Shown one piece after another: positions 7,807-35,601 of a stretch of DNA of 64,000 nucleotides. The position numbers were made by a program, and so were the translations under genes. The stretch is from a virus: IMG/VR virus record IMGVR_UViG_3300042451_001197, positions 42,820-106,819 of that record. One strand, 5' to 3'. Under the pieces are notes generated by a model that was not told the origin of the DNA, searched no databases, and worked only from the letters and a program-made list of their open reading frames with translations. The stretch's first letter is position 1. Each line of letters begins with the position of its first letter.

Positions 7807-7894
7807 TTTAACAAATGATTACAATACAAAGGTATGAAAAAAAAATGACATAAACAAATTTTTTTATTTACAAATTATTTCGTATCTTTGTATT

Positions 7895-8224
7895 ATGGAA
7901 GATGTTGTAATCAGAATGGGAGTTAAATATCTTAAATCAAAAAGATTTAATGTTAATCAGCAATATGGATTTTACAAATTCTATGAATCTATAAACCATA
8001 ATGAAATTGAGTTAAGTAAGAGTTGTTCATTCATTGATATCTATTCTTCCATATATAATGAACTTAAATATATATTATCTACGGATGATGATACTATTAA
8101 GGTTATTGTAAAATCATTTCTTTCAGATAGTCTTTCAATACCGATGGATGAATTAACTGATACAATAGTTTGTTTTCCATTCAACATATCACTTTCAGGA
8201 ACATCCTTTACAATTAATGGATAA
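7895..8224 (+). CDS. hypothetical protein
   Basis: ORF track; TATCTTTG upstream. Confidence 0.65.
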   Translation: MEDVVIRMGVKYLKSKRFNVNQQYGFYKFYESINHNEIELSKSCSFIDIYSSIYNELKYILSTDDDTIKVIVKSFLSDSLSIPMDELTDTIVCFPFNISLSGTSFTING

Positions 8225-31923: not shown

Positions 31924-32274
31924 TTAGTTATTTTCATTTTTGAATAATTCAGTCCAATTTGTATTCTCATCCATTATTTCAATCTCAGAATCATATTCTT
32001 TTGATTTATCCATTAATGAATCGAGGACTCCTTTTGTGTAATATGTTCGAACACCATAATAGTCTTTTCTACATTTATAACAACTTCCCGAATTACCATA
32101 AAAGTAATAATAATCACCTTCTTCTTCAAGTTTTGTTATTCCACTATTAATTTTCCAAGCATCACCATTAAGATAACCACCAACCCAGGTTGCAAATACT
32201 TTGTGGTGAATTTGTTCTTTGTTTGTTATTTTTAATATAACCCAACCATCAGGTATTTCAGATACATTTCTCAT
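31924..32274 (-). CDS. conserved T4-like hypothetical protein (PDGWV..GGYL.GD.WKINSG..SGSCY.C)
   Basis: Motif recognition. Confidence 0.7.
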   Translation of the reverse strand: MRNVSEIPDGWVILKITNKEQIHHKVFATWVGGYLNGDAWKINSGITKLEEEGDYYYFYGNSGSCYKCRKDYYGVRTYYTKGVLDSLMDKSKEYDSEIEIMDENTNWTELFKNENN

Positions 32275-32323
32275 ATTATTTTATAATACAAAGATACAAA
32301 ATTTATTTGAATTAAACAAATTT

Positions 32324-33124
32324 TTAGATGGGTAAATTTACCTTTGATAGTAGTTGGTTTGAAACGTGAGTGTAAATTTCGGTAGTTTTTACATTTGAGT
32401 GACCTAATATTTTCTGAATTACTCTTATATCAGTACCATTCTCTAAAAGATTTGTTGCAAAACTATGTCTTAATTGATGTATGTGATATTTTTCACCCAA
32501 ATATTTTTTAACAATTTGATTACAACTACCAGAACTATATTGTAAACTATTTTGACCATTGAAAAGGTATTCTTTTGGTTGACACTCTTTGAAGTATATT
32601 CTTAATAAGAATAAGATGTTCTGGGAAAGTGGAACTACTCTATCTTTTCTACCTTTAGCGTTTTTAATATGAATAATCATTCTTTTGGAATCGATATCTT
32701 CAATTTTAAGGTTAATTACTTCCGATACTCTTAATCCGACCGAATAAGTTAAAGATAATATCGTTTTATGTTTAAGATTGGTAATTTTAGATAATTGTTC
32801 TTTAATATACTCTCCATCAATAACCTGTGGTAACTTCTTCTCAGATTTAGGTCGTTTGAATGAAACTTTATCATACTTCTTATTTAACCCAAATTTGTAA
32901 AGAAAACGGATTGCGTTTATTACTTGGTTTTGTTGAGATACTGAGGTGAATTTATAATTATCCAGATACGTTTGAAAATCTTTGGAATTGCAGTGTGTTA
33001 TTTGTTTAGCGCCTAACGTATTTAAGAAATTTCGTATATGCGAAAGATAATTATCGCGAGTTCTTGGTGAATAGTTTAAATATATAAACTTTTCTTCACA
33101 AATCTTTATAATTTTAGTGTTCAA
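32324..33124 (-). CDS. tyrosine recombinase, integron-integrase-like
   Basis: N-terminal YSPRT..Y SAM-like domain; GLRVSE, KGRKDR, HQLRHSFAT, LGH..TTEIY; adjacent to attC array. Confidence 0.9.
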   Translation of the reverse strand: MNTKIIKICEEKFIYLNYSPRTRDNYLSHIRNFLNTLGAKQITHCNSKDFQTYLDNYKFTSVSQQNQVINAIRFLYKFGLNKKYDKVSFKRPKSEKKLPQVIDGEYIKEQLSKITNLKHKTILSLTYSVGLRVSEVINLKIEDIDSKRMIIHIKNAKGRKDRVVPLSQNILFLLRIYFKECQPKEYLFNGQNSLQYSSGSCNQIVKKYLGEKYHIHQLRHSFATNLLENGTDIRVIQKILGHSNVKTTEIYTHVSNQLLSKVNLPI

Positions 33125-33149
33125 GTTATTTATTTTTAATCAGTTAGAC

Positions 33150-33177
33150 TATACTTGTTTATATATAATAGTTATAA
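33150..33177 (+). other. candidate attI site
   Basis: G^TTATAA core at 33171 just upstream of the divergent integrase; GTTATAAGTA complements TACTTATAAC of attC1. Confidence 0.6.
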
Positions 33178-33268
33178 GTAATTTTTGAAACCGAAGACCC
33201 GAACTTCTTTAGTACTCCCTAATCACACCCGAAAAGAGTAGTGATTCCCATAAGTTTCAAAAACATAC

Positions 33269-33322
33269 TTATAACAAATGATAAACAACATTAAAACGAT
33301 TGTTTATCATCAGTCGTTAGGT
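33269..33322 (+). other. attC site 1
   Basis: TTATAAC..ATGATAAACAA/TTGTTTATCAT..GTTAGGT. Confidence 0.8.
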
Positions 33323-33331
33323 TCAATTAAA

Positions 33332-33553
33332 TTATTGTTTTGAGTTTAATATATTTTTCTCAACCCATTCAGAAGAAAAATATGGTAGTCCTTCTTCATT
33401 GATAACTCTATTCAAATCTTCAACAAGTTCCTTTCTTTGTGTCATTTGTTTCAATTTTTCTTCTTCATTAAATTTCATACACTCTCTATCAAACTTAATA
33501 CGTTCTTTCATATCAAGATTTTTATACATTTCAAATAATTCTTTCATTTTCAT
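33332..33553 (-). CDS. cassette ORF, hypothetical (MKMKELFEMY...)
   Basis: Lies between attC1 and attC2. Confidence 0.65.
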   Translation of the reverse strand: MKMKELFEMYKNLDMKERIKFDRECMKFNEEEKLKQMTQRKELVEDLNRVINEEGLPYFSSEWVEKNILNSKQ

Positions 33554-33592
33554 ATTTATATTTTTTAATTTGTAAAACAATAATTTAACTAA

Positions 33593-33646
33593 ACCTAACA
33601 AATGATAAACAACATTAAAACGATTGTTTATCATCGGACGTTAGTG
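33593..33646 (+). other. attC site 2
   Basis: Nearly identical to attC1; AACCTAAC complements the cassette start GTTAGGTT. Confidence 0.8.
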
Positions 33647-33853
33647 GCAATTTGAGCCAAATAAATAATTATATTCGTTCATATACCATTTTTCATCTAT
33701 TGAATGTTGTATAAATCTAAGAGGATGTGTGCTTTTTAAGCATTTATTGCGTATTTTAGCTAATGCCTCTGAATGAGATAAACTGCCACTAACAACAGAT
33801 ATAATCAATGGTGAGAATATCTTTTCATCTAACCTTTGTTCTTTATTCATCAT
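33641..33853 (-). CDS. cassette ORF starting inside attC3
   Basis: LIISVVSGS encoded by the L''/R'' arm. Confidence 0.6.
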   Translation of the reverse strand: MMNKEQRLDEKIFSPLIISVVSGSLSHSEALAKIRNKCLKSTHPLRFIQHSIDEKWYMNEYNYLFGSNCH

Positions 33854-33911
33854 TTTTTGTTTTTAAATTTGTTCCTTTTACACCACTGATTATATCTGCA
33901 AACCGTTAGTG
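33787..33911 (+). other. attC site 3
   Basis: TGCCACTAAC..CAGATATAATCAATGGTG / CACCACTGATTATATCTG..GTTAGTG. Confidence 0.78.
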
Positions 33912-33916
33912 ATAAT

Positions 33917-34159
33917 TTATTTCTTAACAATCTTATATCCAAATTTGTCCAAAAGTTCTCTTATTTCCTTAGGTATTTCTCTTTCCATACCACCACAACT
34001 CATTCTGGTTCCAAGTGGTATTCTTTCCCAAATTTTCATAAGTAGTGTTAAAGTTTCCTTCGGAGATAAACTATCACTAACATCAGATATATTCAAGTTT
34101 TCTGATTCAGTTAGTTTCTGTTTGAAAGTGTCTATGTATTTTCTCATTTCGTGTTTCAT
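33917..34159 (-). CDS. cassette ORF starting inside attC4, MKHEMRKYIDTFKQKLTESE leader
   Basis: LNISDVSDS encoded by the attC arm. Confidence 0.65.
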   Translation of the reverse strand: MKHEMRKYIDTFKQKLTESENLNISDVSDSLSPKETLTLLMKIWERIPLGTRMSCGGMEREIPKEIRELLDKFGYKIVKK

Positions 34160-34216
34160 AATTTTGTTTTATATATAAATATCAGAAAACCTAAATATAT
34201 CTGAGTACCGTTATAT
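34075..34216 (+). other. attC site 4
   Basis: TATCACTAAC..TCAGATATATTCAAGTTTTCTGAT / ATCAGAAAACCTAAATATATCTGA..GTTATAT. Confidence 0.75.
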
Positions 34217-34888
34217 ATCAAAAACATTTCCATTACTACATAATTTACCAAACTTACCATCTGTTACCACACTACCATTACTGAATATGGTATCGATATT
34301 CGGTATCTTTCTAACACCAGAGTTTATAATGTCCTCACAATTGTGTATGTGTCCGAATAAAGATAACTTTGGTTTAATCTCAAAGATACGTTTTCTTAAA
34401 GATGTGTCACCACAAAACTCCAATTCGTTTTCTCTATTATAAGATAAATCTAAGATTGTGCTTGGTGGTCCGTGAGTGATAACAATATCGGTATCAGTTG
34501 GAATCTGTTTCCAAACTTCGTGGGTTTTCATTCTGTTTTTATTGAATGCCCATCCTATACCAAATGTTGGTGTTATCGGAGAACCCCATATCTTAATTCC
34601 TTCAATCTCAACGGACTCGTTCTCCAAGTAAATTATTCCACCATCATTGAAATTATCTTTTGTGATATATTTTCTTTCTATTGATGTGTCGTGATTTCCC
34701 GAAACAAAAATCTTATACTTTATAGGTAAAGATTTATACCACTCAATAAAGTTTTCCATCTCAATCTTGTTTGGTAAAGGTTCTCTTGGGTTGGTTGCGT
34801 CTCCACTATGGATGACCATATCAATATTCTCGGGTATTGTTAATAACCCGTGAAAGGTGTGAGTGTCAGATATGTGCCAGATTTTCAT
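34211..34888 (-). CDS. metallophosphoesterase
   Basis: HISDTH, IHSGD, SGNHD, THGPP, FGHIH; likely start MKIWH. Confidence 0.9.
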   Translation of the reverse strand: MKIWHISDTHTFHGLLTIPENIDMVIHSGDATNPREPLPNKIEMENFIEWYKSLPIKYKIFVSGNHDTSIERKYITKDNFNDGGIIYLENESVEIEGIKIWGSPITPTFGIGWAFNKNRMKTHEVWKQIPTDTDIVITHGPPSTILDLSYNRENELEFCGDTSLRKRIFEIKPKLSLFGHIHNCEDIINSGVRKIPNIDTIFSNGSVVTDGKFGKLCSNGNVFDI

Positions 34889-34944
34889 AATACAAAGATA
34901 CGAAATTATTCTCAAATAACCAAAAAAAATGTATATTTATTAAT

Positions 34945-35601
34945 ATGAGGAAATTAATAAGAAAATTATTAAGGGAGGAAATGTTGTCAAAAATTAAAAA
35001 TTATAAAGAAAATACGTCCATATTAAAAGAAGATGATACGATATCCGTAGTAACATTAATAAGTACTGACGAATCTAGTAATGATAAATTGTGGTTATTC
35101 GTATCGTTTAAAAATTTCGGTAATTATAGCGAATATTCATATTCATTCATAGTTACCGACAAAAATAACTCCCCCCTCACAAATTATATTACTAAAAGAG
35201 AAGATGTTAGTTATTTCATACCGATAGAATTAAAACATAAAAAACAAATATTTCCGATAATTATGGATTCAACTAGAAAATTAATGGACGAAGAATTACC
35301 TCAAAATATATACAGGAAAACCGTAGAACCAATAGAAGGTAATTCATTAAAAAGATATGAAGAAATAACCAATATTATGGTTAATGAATATGGTTATAAA
35401 TTAATTGAATATTCGAAAGATAAATGGGGTTATACATATTGGAAATTAAGTAGGGAAAATGTGACAGATGATAATAAAAATATGAATGAATCTTACGAGA
35501 TAACTCATTCATATACATTAGAAGAGACTTTAAGACAAACAAATGATTGTTTATTACCTAAATTATCATTCTTAAATCTCGAACCTATTTTCAAGAATTA
35601 A
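34945..35601 (+). CDS. hypothetical protein, MRKLIRKLLREE leader
   Basis: ORF track; TATTTAT upstream. Confidence 0.7.
   Translation: MRKLIRKLLREEMLSKIKNYKENTSILKEDDTISVVTLISTDESSNDKLWLFVSFKNFGNYSEYSYSFIVTDKNNSPLTNYITKREDVSYFIPIELKHKKQIFPIIMDSTRKLMDEELPQNIYRKTVEPIEGNSLKRYEEITNIMVNEYGYKLIEYSKDKWGYTYWKLSRENVTDDNKNMNESYEITHSYTLEETLRQTNDCLLPKLSFLNLEPIFKN

What the first reader, a model, noticed from the sequence alone, without database searches (positions are those of the whole stretch)
32324..34216. Phage-borne integron with four attC sites and an integrase lacking the usual IntI insert
Seen: a tyrosine recombinase is divergent from a GTTATAA core (33171) and four attC-like palindromes (33269-33322, 33593-33646, 33787-33911, 34075-34216). 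Each cassette's first 8-10 nt exactly complement its own R'' box: GTTATAAGTA/TACTTATAAC, GTTAGGTT/AACCTAAC, GTTAGTGGCA/TGCCACTAAC, GTTAGTGATA/TATCACTAAC. Knowledge: this complementarity is the signature of cassettes mobilised as circles, and canonical IntI has an extra I2 segment before box II. That segment appears absent here (YLFNGQNSLQYSSGS...HQLRH; 266 aa). Inference: a non-canonical integron class operating in a jumbo phage.
Basis: partly seen in the sequence, partly recalled or inferred. Interest (0 to 1): 0.82.

Follow-up and report, generated by a model that had tools for sequence, protein, structure and literature searches.

The report
Integron-like gene-cassette platform in jumbo phage
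This large phage carries its own gene-capture platform, built like a bacterial integron (recombinase, docking site, hairpin-bounded swappable gene cassettes) but run by a different, shorter Xer-type enzyme; related phages with identical enzymes carry different cassettes, joined exactly at these sites.

Summary
A 266-aa tyrosine recombinase (32324-33124, minus strand) lies 47 nt from a conserved attI-like motif that ends in G|TTA (G at 33171). Four cassettes follow, each closed by an attC-like site: xTAAC, stem-loop, GTTAx.

In about 160 related phage and metagenome loci (jumbo phages, 256-362 kb) the same recombinase sits next to arrays of up to 11 or more cassettes.
- The 6 variable nt after each GTTA complement the next site's R'' in 75% of adjacent pairs, against 4-6% in controls.
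- Contigs with 100% identical recombinase and backbone diverge exactly after the attI GTTA.
- One 1,067-nt cassette is 99.9% identical in two phages whose recombinase genes are 71% identical, and its borders fall at the GTTA cores.

The enzyme is not an IntI. It lacks the IntI insert, scores below the family cut-off and forms its own clade. Cassette genes face the recombinase, the reverse of the classical layout. Wobble asymmetry shows that the bottom strand is the one that folds.

I read this as an integron-like system, a new variant of a known kind. Recombination itself is inferred, not shown. I found no paper describing it. This scan has reported the same kind of system on other phage DNA.

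The parts
32324..33124 (-). Xer-like tyrosine recombinase, 266 aa, TTG start; the presumed cassette integrase
   Evidence: Pfam Phage_integrase 1.3e-38 plus SAM_4. NCBIfam best hit XerA_Arch, 199 bits (cut-off 220); IntI model TIGR02249 169 bits in 2 stretches (cut-off 265). Catalytic R132, K157, H216-x-x-R219, H242 and Y251 are invariant or nearly invariant (H216) in alignment A3. AF2 model pLDDT 87; top folds are IntI4 2a3v and XerA 5hxy/4a8e.
33155..33182 (+). attI-like site: conserved TTATATATAATA followed by G|TTA (G at 33171); the variable sequence of cassette 1 starts after GTTA
   Evidence: The motif is present in 102 of 107 non-redundant related loci, 45-56 nt from the recombinase start. 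The cassette chain starts exactly at this GTTA in 80 of them. Contigs with identical backbones diverge exactly after this GTTA.
33172..33316 (+). Cassette 1 (145 nt), no ORF; its body is one long hairpin
   Evidence: Chain rule 6/6. No ORF of 30 aa or more lies within it. The minus-strand RNA fold is -32.9 kcal/mol, z -5.1.
33266..33325 (+). attC-like site 1 (48-nt class): R'' TACTTATAAC, 11-bp stem, loop CATTAAAACGA, R' GTTAGGTT
   Evidence: DNA fold of the bottom strand -8.1 against -7.7 kcal/mol for the top strand.
33317..33640 (+). Cassette 2 (324 nt) with one ORF, 33332-33553 on the minus strand (73 aa from the ATG at 33553)
   Evidence: Chain rule 5/6. ORF. No Pfam or PHROG hit. No relative in IMG/VR.
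33592..33649 (+). attC-like site 2 (48-nt class), with the same 33-nt hairpin as site 1
   Evidence: Bottom strand -10.1 against top strand -8.1 kcal/mol.
33641..33905 (+). Cassette 3 (265 nt) with ORF 33641-33853 on the minus strand (70 aa). The stop codon is the TTA of the preceding R' core; the start codon lies in the loop of its own attC.
33784..33914 (+). attC-like site 3 (about 120-nt class): R'' TGCCACTAAC, 18-bp stem, R' GTTAGTGATA
   Evidence: Bottom strand -18.0 against top strand -13.8 kcal/mol.
33906..34210 (+). Cassette 4 (305 nt) with ORF 33917-34159 on the minus strand (80 aa); the start codon lies in the loop of its own attC
   Evidence: Only the attC-encoded N-terminal part has relatives. 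No usable protein-atlas hit by features.
34072..34219 (+). attC-like site 4: R'' TATCACTAAC, 24-bp stem, R' GTTATATATC. The distal end of the array is joined at G|TTA to the stop codon of the flanking gene.
   Evidence: Bottom strand -17.8 against top strand -14.5 kcal/mol. The sequence TTATATATC... is homologous to the native 3' end of the same gene in L165, where no hairpin precedes it.
34211..34915 (-). Flanking calcineurin-like metallophosphoesterase gene; not a cassette, it marks the array's distal border
   Evidence: Pfam Metallophos 7.5e-16. No matching R'' lies beyond it. In the closest relative, L165, it lies on the other side of the recombinase.

Best explanation
This is a phage-native, integron-like gene-capture platform.

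Proposed mechanism:
- A short Xer-family tyrosine recombinase recombines folded single-stranded attC-like hairpins with a double-stranded attI-like site 47 nt upstream of its own gene. The folding strand is the bottom strand, which is the strand that carries the genes.
- Strands are exchanged at G|TTA.
- Each cassette is the unit TTA...body...R''-hairpin-G. In a circular form its first bases pair with its own R''. It usually carries one small gene that faces the recombinase.
- New cassettes enter at attI, and cassettes move between phages.

Shown here:
- the anatomy of the locus;
- the chain rule;
- the conserved attI;
- covariation in the stems and the bias towards bottom-strand folding;
- cassettes that differ between otherwise identical backbones;
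- one cassette shared by distinct phages with exact borders.

Inferred:
- that the adjacent recombinase is the enzyme;
- that the substrate is single-stranded DNA;
- that a circular cassette intermediate exists;
- that many cassettes serve counter-defence. A few are DNA methyltransferases; most have no known function.
For: 1. Architecture. In 80 viral and 80 metagenome loci the same recombinase is flanked, on its upstream side only, by same-orientation xTAAC-stem-loop-GTTAx sites. As many as 13 sites fall within the 6-kb flank, and arrays span 4.7-10 kb in complete 256-362-kb phage genomes. Eighty bacterial control loci give about 6 hits and no arrays.

2. Chain rule. The 6 variable nt after GTTA of site n-1 complement the 6 nt before TAAC of site n at 5/6 or better in 120 of 160 adjacent pairs. 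The figure is 11 of 253 for a site's own R' and 5.8% for random pairs.

3. attI. The motif T-ATATA-..TA|GTTA is present in 102 of 107 non-redundant loci, 45-56 nt from the start codon. Chains of up to 11 cassettes start there.

4. Mobility.
- L026 and L029 are 100% identical over 2,651 nt, ending exactly at ...GTTA|.
- L024 and L228 are 99.85% identical over 5,853 nt, ending at the same point.
- The cassette L207:818-1885 sits at attI. It matches L005:7498-8565, the second cassette there, at 99.9% over 1,079 nt, while the recombinase genes are 71% identical. Flanks are unrelated and identity breaks at the GTTA cores.
- A second case, L005 c4 and L009 c2, shows that the hairpin travels with the body on its left.

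5. Folded strand. Of 24 consensus pairs, 18 show compensatory changes, and one G.T pair is kept in 58 of 60 sites without ever becoming a Watson-Crick pair. Stem mismatches are A.C on the plus strand 549 times against G.T 82 times, which means wobble pairs on the minus strand. All four window sites fold better as the bottom strand.

6. Cassettes. 482 cassettes fall into 398 clusters. They have a median length of about 350 nt and one ORF each. Most encoded proteins have no known family; a few are DNA methyltransferases.
Against: - No recombination product, circle or activity was observed.
- The enzyme lacks the IntI-specific insert, which in VchIntIA contacts the extrahelical bases (established knowledge; absence shown). 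Recognition of a folded strand would therefore need another mode.
- The bottom strand is also the mRNA-sense strand here. The wobble bias and the covariation could reflect RNA hairpins in addition to, or instead of, DNA hairpins.
- Metagenome assemblies can break at strain variation. The 'identical backbone, different array' contigs therefore show population heterogeneity, not a time series.
- The window's own cassettes have no copies elsewhere. Mobility is shown for the family, not for these four units.
- In one relative (G004) the recombinase gene is split in two, yet an array persists.
Confidence: 0.85

Rival explanations
1. The hairpins are shuffling points for general homologous recombination, like the promoter-early stem-loop (PeSL) mobile regulatory cassettes of T4-type phages. 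On this view the neighbouring recombinase does something else, such as dimer resolution or lysogenic integration.
For: Sites 1 and 2 share an identical 33-nt hairpin, and attC classes recur across cassettes, so homology for recombination exists. One relative is flagged as a provirus, and one keeps an array with a split recombinase gene.
Against: Adjacent sites often belong to unrelated classes (48, about 88 and about 126 nt), yet the joint is always at G|TTA. attI has no hairpin and is still the joint. The chain rule requires a fixed crossover position. The recombinase-attI spacing is fixed at 45-56 nt in 102 of 107 loci.
Confidence: 0.07
2. The sites are purely regulatory RNA hairpins (terminators or start-codon-sequestering operators) between small phage genes, and the resemblance to attC is coincidental.
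For: The folding strand is the mRNA-sense strand. In 51 of 121 cassette ORFs the start codon lies inside the hairpin, which would allow translational control.
Against: An RNA hairpin does not explain three findings: R'' complements the far R' rather than its own; whole units are exchanged with borders at GTTA; and the first joint is a hairpin-less conserved site next to a recombinase. A regulatory role may coexist with recombination.
Confidence: 0.03
3. The locus is a fragment of a bacterial integron, or a CALIN (a cluster of attC sites lacking an integrase), picked up by the phage, as reported for 21 phages by Qi et al. 2023.
For: Phages are known to carry integron pieces and CALINs whose attC sites IntI1 can use (PMC9892861).
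Against: The recombinase clade is almost entirely phage-borne (15 phage rows plus one bacterial contig-edge row) and separate from IntI. The system is conserved with its attI in more than 100 phage loci. Composition matches the 29% GC phage. The closest bacterial homologues (40-54% identity, Bacteroidota) show no such arrays.
Confidence: 0.03
4. The locus is an inversion system (inverton or shufflon): the recombinase flips segments bounded by the 8-10-bp inverted repeats.
For: Each cassette body is flanked by inverted repeats next to a tyrosine recombinase.
Against: The longest ORF is on one strand in 121 cassettes and on the other in 6. Homologous cassettes were never found in the opposite orientation (0 minus-strand links). 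The repeats differ from cassette to cassette.
Confidence: 0.02

Closest known systems
Integrons (IntI integrase, attI, attC-bounded cassette arrays), especially sedentary chromosomal integrons with families of similar attC sites
   Same: The recombinase gene reads away from an adjacent attI ending in G|TT. The array consists of single-gene cassettes. Each ends in an imperfect palindrome with AAC...GTT cores, and its R'' pairs with the first bases of its own cassette. The bottom strand folds better. Cassettes are mostly of unknown function and extremely diverse. Insertion is seen at attI.
   Different: The enzyme lacks the IntI insert and lies outside the IntI clade. There are no extrahelical bases; instead there are conserved G.T wobbles and an asymmetric internal loop (1-2 nt against 4-6 nt). 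Cassette genes are inverted and read towards the recombinase, so a Pc-type promoter at attI cannot drive them. Many genes start inside their own attC. The platform sits in jumbo phage genomes.
Phage-borne integron fragments and CALINs (Qi et al. 2023, PMC9892861)
   Same: attC-type sites and cassettes, including DNA methyltransferase cassettes, occur in phage genomes, among them a phage of a Bacteroidota host.
   Different: Those were found with IntegronFinder as canonical attC or IntI components, mostly without an integrase, and were interpreted as acquired from bacteria. Here there is a conserved phage lineage-specific recombinase with its own attI and its own site type.
XerA / XerCD recombinases, including Xer-mediated integration of folded single-stranded CTX-phi DNA (IMEX)
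   Same: These are the closest sequence and fold relatives apart from IntI (XerA 4a8e and 5hxy). CTX-phi shows that an ordinary Xer enzyme can exchange one strand pair between a folded single strand and a duplex site (abstract of PMC3442271, listed).
   Different: Xer systems act at a single dif-like site and do not build cassette arrays. NCBIfam Xer models are all below cut-off for this protein.
PeSL mobile regulatory cassettes of T4-type phages (from my own knowledge: Arbiol, Comeau and Krisch 2010; not retrieved here)
   Same: Small phage ORFs in hyperplastic regions are bracketed by stem-loops and shuffled between phages.
   Different: PeSL shuffling is attributed to homologous recombination between promoter stem-loops. 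It has no dedicated recombinase, no attI and no fixed AAC/GTT crossover.

Membership tests
Integron integrase (IntI) | Scores above the curated cut-off of the IntI model (TIGR02249, 265 bits) | tested here: not met
   169 bits in two stretches; model positions 181-259 are unmatched. True IntI proteins from bacterial loci score 398-449 bits.
Integron integrase (IntI) | IntI-specific additional segment (I2 helix region) ahead of box II | tested here: not met
   The query has 42 residues where VchIntIA has 90. The 31-aa plus 10-aa IntI-only insertions are absent from all phage-clade rows of A3. The AF2 model shows only a loop there.
Integron integrase (IntI) | Branches inside the IntI clade | tested here: not met
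   The phage clade (SH-aLRT 99) groups with short Bacteroidota recombinases. IntI forms a separate clade (99). The order of the phage clade, IntI and Xer is unresolved (quick tree, 52 rows).
Integron (system) | attI site next to the integrase gene, where cassettes are inserted at G|TT | tested here: met
   A conserved motif ending in G|TTA lies 45-56 nt from the start codon in 102 of 107 loci. Sequence diverges right after it, and an identical cassette is found at attI in one phage and at position 2 in another. The evidence is comparative, not biochemical.
Integron (system) | attC sites: R''-L''...L'-R' imperfect palindromes with RYYYAAC / GTTRRRY cores, where R'' is complementary to the start of the same cassette | tested here: met
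   The AAC/GTT cores are invariant and the chain rule holds in 75% of adjacent pairs. The core is usually GTTA[T/G], so it only partly fits RRRY.
Integron (system) | Extrahelical bases and a roughly symmetric unpaired central spacer on the folded bottom strand | tested here: not met
   The sites instead show conserved G.T wobbles and an asymmetric internal loop of 1-2 nt against 4-6 nt. Preferential folding of the bottom strand is met.
Integron (system) | Promoterless cassette ORFs oriented away from attI and expressed from Pc | tested here: not met
   In 121 of 133 cassettes the ORF reads towards attI and the recombinase, and 51 ORFs start inside their own attC.
Integron (system) | Detection by IntegronFinder or HattCI attC models; recombination in attC x attI assays | not testable with these tools
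   These programs are not available here. Rfam has no match in the region.
Xer recombinases (XerC/D, XerA) | Scores above the curated cut-offs of the Xer models | tested here: not met
   XerA_Arch 199 bits against a cut-off of 220; XerC 163 against 335; XerD 163 against 330.
Shufflon / inverton | Segments found in both orientations between inverted repeats | tested here: not met
   No inverted homologous cassettes were found, and ORF strand is 121 to 6.

The most novel reading that the evidence does not exclude
Jumbo phages of Bacteroidota-type hosts own a gene-capture system of independent or sister origin to integrons. An insert-less Xer-like recombinase reads folded bottom-strand hairpins through fixed G.T wobbles and an asymmetric loop instead of extrahelical bases. 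It inserts self-expressing cassettes, whose start codon and leader are encoded in the attC, at its own attI. The phages trade these cassettes, many of them probably counter-defence genes, between lineages. If so, integron-type recombination does not require the IntI-specific domain.
Probability: 0.6. Interest if true: 0.92.

Novelty: new variant of a known kind. Interest (0 to 1): 0.85.

Why it matters
- Integrons are regarded as bacterial (and lately archaeal) devices defined by the IntI insert. A widespread phage platform with the same logic but a plain Xer-like enzyme would show that cassette capture through folded single strands arose more than once, or predates IntI.
- It would explain how hypervariable accessory regions of jumbo phages are built and exchanged.
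- It would provide a catalogue of hundreds of small phage genes, including methyltransferases, that are likely enriched for host-takeover and anti-defence functions.
- It would offer a compact new recombinase and site pair for genome engineering.
- It makes testable which features of attC recognition are essential.

Tried and rejected
- Rfam scan of 32000-35500: no attC or other meaningful family.
I used the metagenome scan instead.
- Copies of the window's own cassettes: c2 has none, and c4 matches only over the attC-encoded N-terminus in one contig. The protein atlas gave no usable hit for c4.
- Synteny of flanking genes with relatives: not conserved, so the array borders could not be defined by synteny.
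- Arrays next to the nearest bacterial homologues: none found. The best one (Sunxiuqinia, 54% identity) sits at a contig edge.
- A solo attC-like hairpin at 7809-7925 looks like a different, forward-oriented element and was set aside.
- The metallophosphoesterase gene as a fifth cassette: rejected, because no matching R'' lies beyond it.
- Inversion and homologous-recombination models: considered and rejected, as set out under the rival explanations.
- No AF2 complex job was run.
Full report
**What is in the window.**

The window is part of a 106,819-base IMG/VR virus record. It has 29% GC and CheckV estimates it at 36% complete.

A 266-aa tyrosine recombinase occupies 32324-33124 on the minus strand. 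Its start codon lies 47 nt from GTTATAAGTA (G at 33171).

To the right lie four sites of the form xTAAC, 1-2 nt, stem, loop, stem, 4-6 nt, GTTAx. They span 33272-33319, 33596-33643, 33790-33908 and 34078-34213. The first two share an identical 33-nt hairpin, which is never seen in shuffles.

Nothing comparable occurs elsewhere in the 107 kb, apart from one isolated chance hit.

Every unit between two GTTA cores holds one complete small ORF on the minus strand, except the first, which has none. Two ORFs start inside the loop of their own site. One uses the TTA of the preceding core as its stop codon.

**The pattern in relatives.**

I fetched 80 viral contigs, 80 metagenome contigs and 80 bacterial contigs that encode relatives of the recombinase.

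In the phage loci, same-orientation sites of this type stand only on the upstream side of the recombinase. As many as 13 sites fall within the 6-kb flank.

Four near-complete genomes of 256-362 kb, one with terminal repeats, carry arrays of 9-13 detected sites over 4.7-10 kb. The jumbo-phage setting is therefore real.

The bacterial control loci give about 6 hits in total and no arrays.

The 256 unique sites from the first 80 viral loci (400 once the metagenome loci were added) fall into size classes of 48, about 88 and about 126 nt. They share these features:
- AC-n6-TAAC-A on the left and C-GTTA-[T/G]-n5-AT on the right;
- a TATA element at fixed distance from the core;
- an asymmetric internal loop.

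**The cassette signature.**

Across adjacent sites less than 700 nt apart, I compared the six variable bases after GTTA of site n-1 with the six before TAAC of site n. They are complementary at 5/6 or better in 120 of 160 pairs. The same measure gives 11 of 253 for a site's own R' and 5.8% for random pairs.

This is what integron biology predicts if each unit was once a circle whose site was cut at G|TT. I know of no regulatory or transposon model that predicts it.

**A docking site.**

In 102 of 107 non-redundant loci, a conserved motif (T-ATATA-..TA followed by GTTA) lies 45-56 nt from the recombinase start. Sequence becomes locus-specific immediately after GTTA. In 80 loci the chain of cassettes begins exactly there. 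Chains of 8-11 consecutive cassettes can be walked from it: 11 in L012, 9 in L006 and L040, and 8 in L013 and L030. The window has 4.

**Evidence that cassettes move.**

The 482 cassettes form 398 sequence clusters.

Contigs whose recombinase genes are 100% identical carry unrelated arrays.
- L026 and L029 are identical over 2,651 nt of backbone, recombinase and attI. They part exactly after ...GATAGTTA.
- L024 and L228 are 99.85% identical over 5,853 nt and part at the same point.

A 1,067-nt cassette is 99.9% identical between L207 and L005. In L207 it sits directly at attI; in L005 it is the second cassette. The recombinase genes of these two contigs are only 71% identical. Both flanks are unrelated, and identity breaks at the two GTTA cores.

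In a second shared cassette (L005 and L009), homology runs from the preceding GTTA to the cassette's own GTTA. The hairpin therefore belongs to the body on its left. It also shows that the genes are inverted relative to classical cassettes.

**Which strand folds.**

An RNAalifold consensus of 60 bottom-strand sites has 24 pairs, 18 of them with compensatory changes. One G.T pair is present in 58 of 60 sites and is never replaced by a Watson-Crick pair.

Over 400 sites, stem mismatches are A.C on the plus strand 549 times and G.T 82 times. They are therefore wobble pairs on the minus strand. All four window sites fold more stably as the bottom strand.

This matches the bottom-strand preference of attC sites. 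However, the bottom strand here is also the mRNA sense, so an added RNA-level role cannot be excluded.

**The enzyme.**

It has the full catalytic set (R, K, HxxR, H, Y).

Its best family scores are all below the curated cut-offs: XerA 199 bits against 220, and IntI 169 bits against 265, the latter in two pieces.

Against VchIntIA it has 42 residues where the integron enzyme has 90. In an alignment with six environmental proteins, five of them confirmed as IntI by TIGR02249 scores of 398-449 bits, the IntI-only insertions are missing from every phage-clade protein.

The AF2 model (pLDDT 87) matches IntI4 and XerA about equally well.

In a quick likelihood tree, the phage proteins form their own clade (support 99) next to short Bacteroidota recombinases. 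IntI is a separate clade (99), and the deeper order is unresolved.

It works like an IntI by context but is not a member of that family. Xer enzymes are known to recombine the folded single strand of CTX-phi, so the chemistry does not strictly need the IntI insert (abstract of PMC3442271; otherwise my own knowledge).

**Cargo.**

Of 121 cassette proteins, only 7 have a Pfam family. These include two DNA methyltransferases, a PARP-like domain and several DUFs. PHROGs adds mostly methyltransferases.

Similarity among cassette proteins is confined to the first 20-45 residues, which are encoded by the shared attC sequence.

The window's three cassette proteins have no known family.

**Literature and earlier notes.**

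Seven full-text searches found no description of this system. The nearest work is Qi et al. 2023. It reports canonical integron fragments and integrase-less attC clusters in 21 phages.

Earlier reports of this scan describe the same kind of system on other phage DNA. I saw them only after most of my analyses were done, and they agree with mine.

**Verdict.**

The mechanism rests on strong comparative evidence but no direct assay. I rate it a new variant of a known kind, of high interest.

Noticed in passing
window 33171-33275; L040, L012 and L030 first cassettes: The first cassette has no ORF and folds into one long hairpin (RNA -32.9 kcal/mol, z -5.1). L040 has another ORF-less first cassette with the same R box. 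In L012 and L030 the first cassette body is only the 11-nt CATTAAAACGA between R' and R'', the same 11 nt that form the loop of the 48-nt attC class.
   Followed up: partly
window 33780-33853 and 34068-34159: The ORFs of cassettes 3 and 4 start in the attC loop and read through L'' and R'' in the same frame (..IS.VS.SLS..). Across relatives, cassette proteins share only this attC-encoded N-terminal leader of 20-45 residues.
   Followed up: partly
window 34210-34219 against L165 (rc) 1467-2180: The distal end of the array is joined at G|TTA to the stop codon of the metallophosphoesterase gene. In the closest relative (recombinase 91% identical) the same gene lies directly on the other side of the recombinase, with no hairpin at its 3' end. 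This suggests a rearrangement through a secondary TTA site.
   Followed up: partly
G004 (L067/L068) C1:61298-62096: In this 318-kb relative the recombinase gene is split into two overlapping reading frames (residues 1-134 and 133-266), yet a four-cassette array and attI are still present.
   Followed up: no
L246 (G003), 13.8-16.7 kb from the recombinase: A second cluster of six same-orientation sites lies about 10 kb beyond the main array of this complete 310-kb phage. It is either a long interruption or a separate cluster without its own integrase.
   Followed up: no
window 7809-7925: A solo TAAC-stem-loop-GTTA hairpin on the plus strand, whose left arm resembles the 48-nt class. It encloses the start of a plus-strand ORF (7895). 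There is no chain partner, so it is probably unrelated or regulatory.
   Followed up: partly
L075 (IMGVR_UViG_2515075002_000001): This viral contig encodes a recombinase that branches inside the canonical IntI clade, unlike the phage clade studied here.
   Followed up: no
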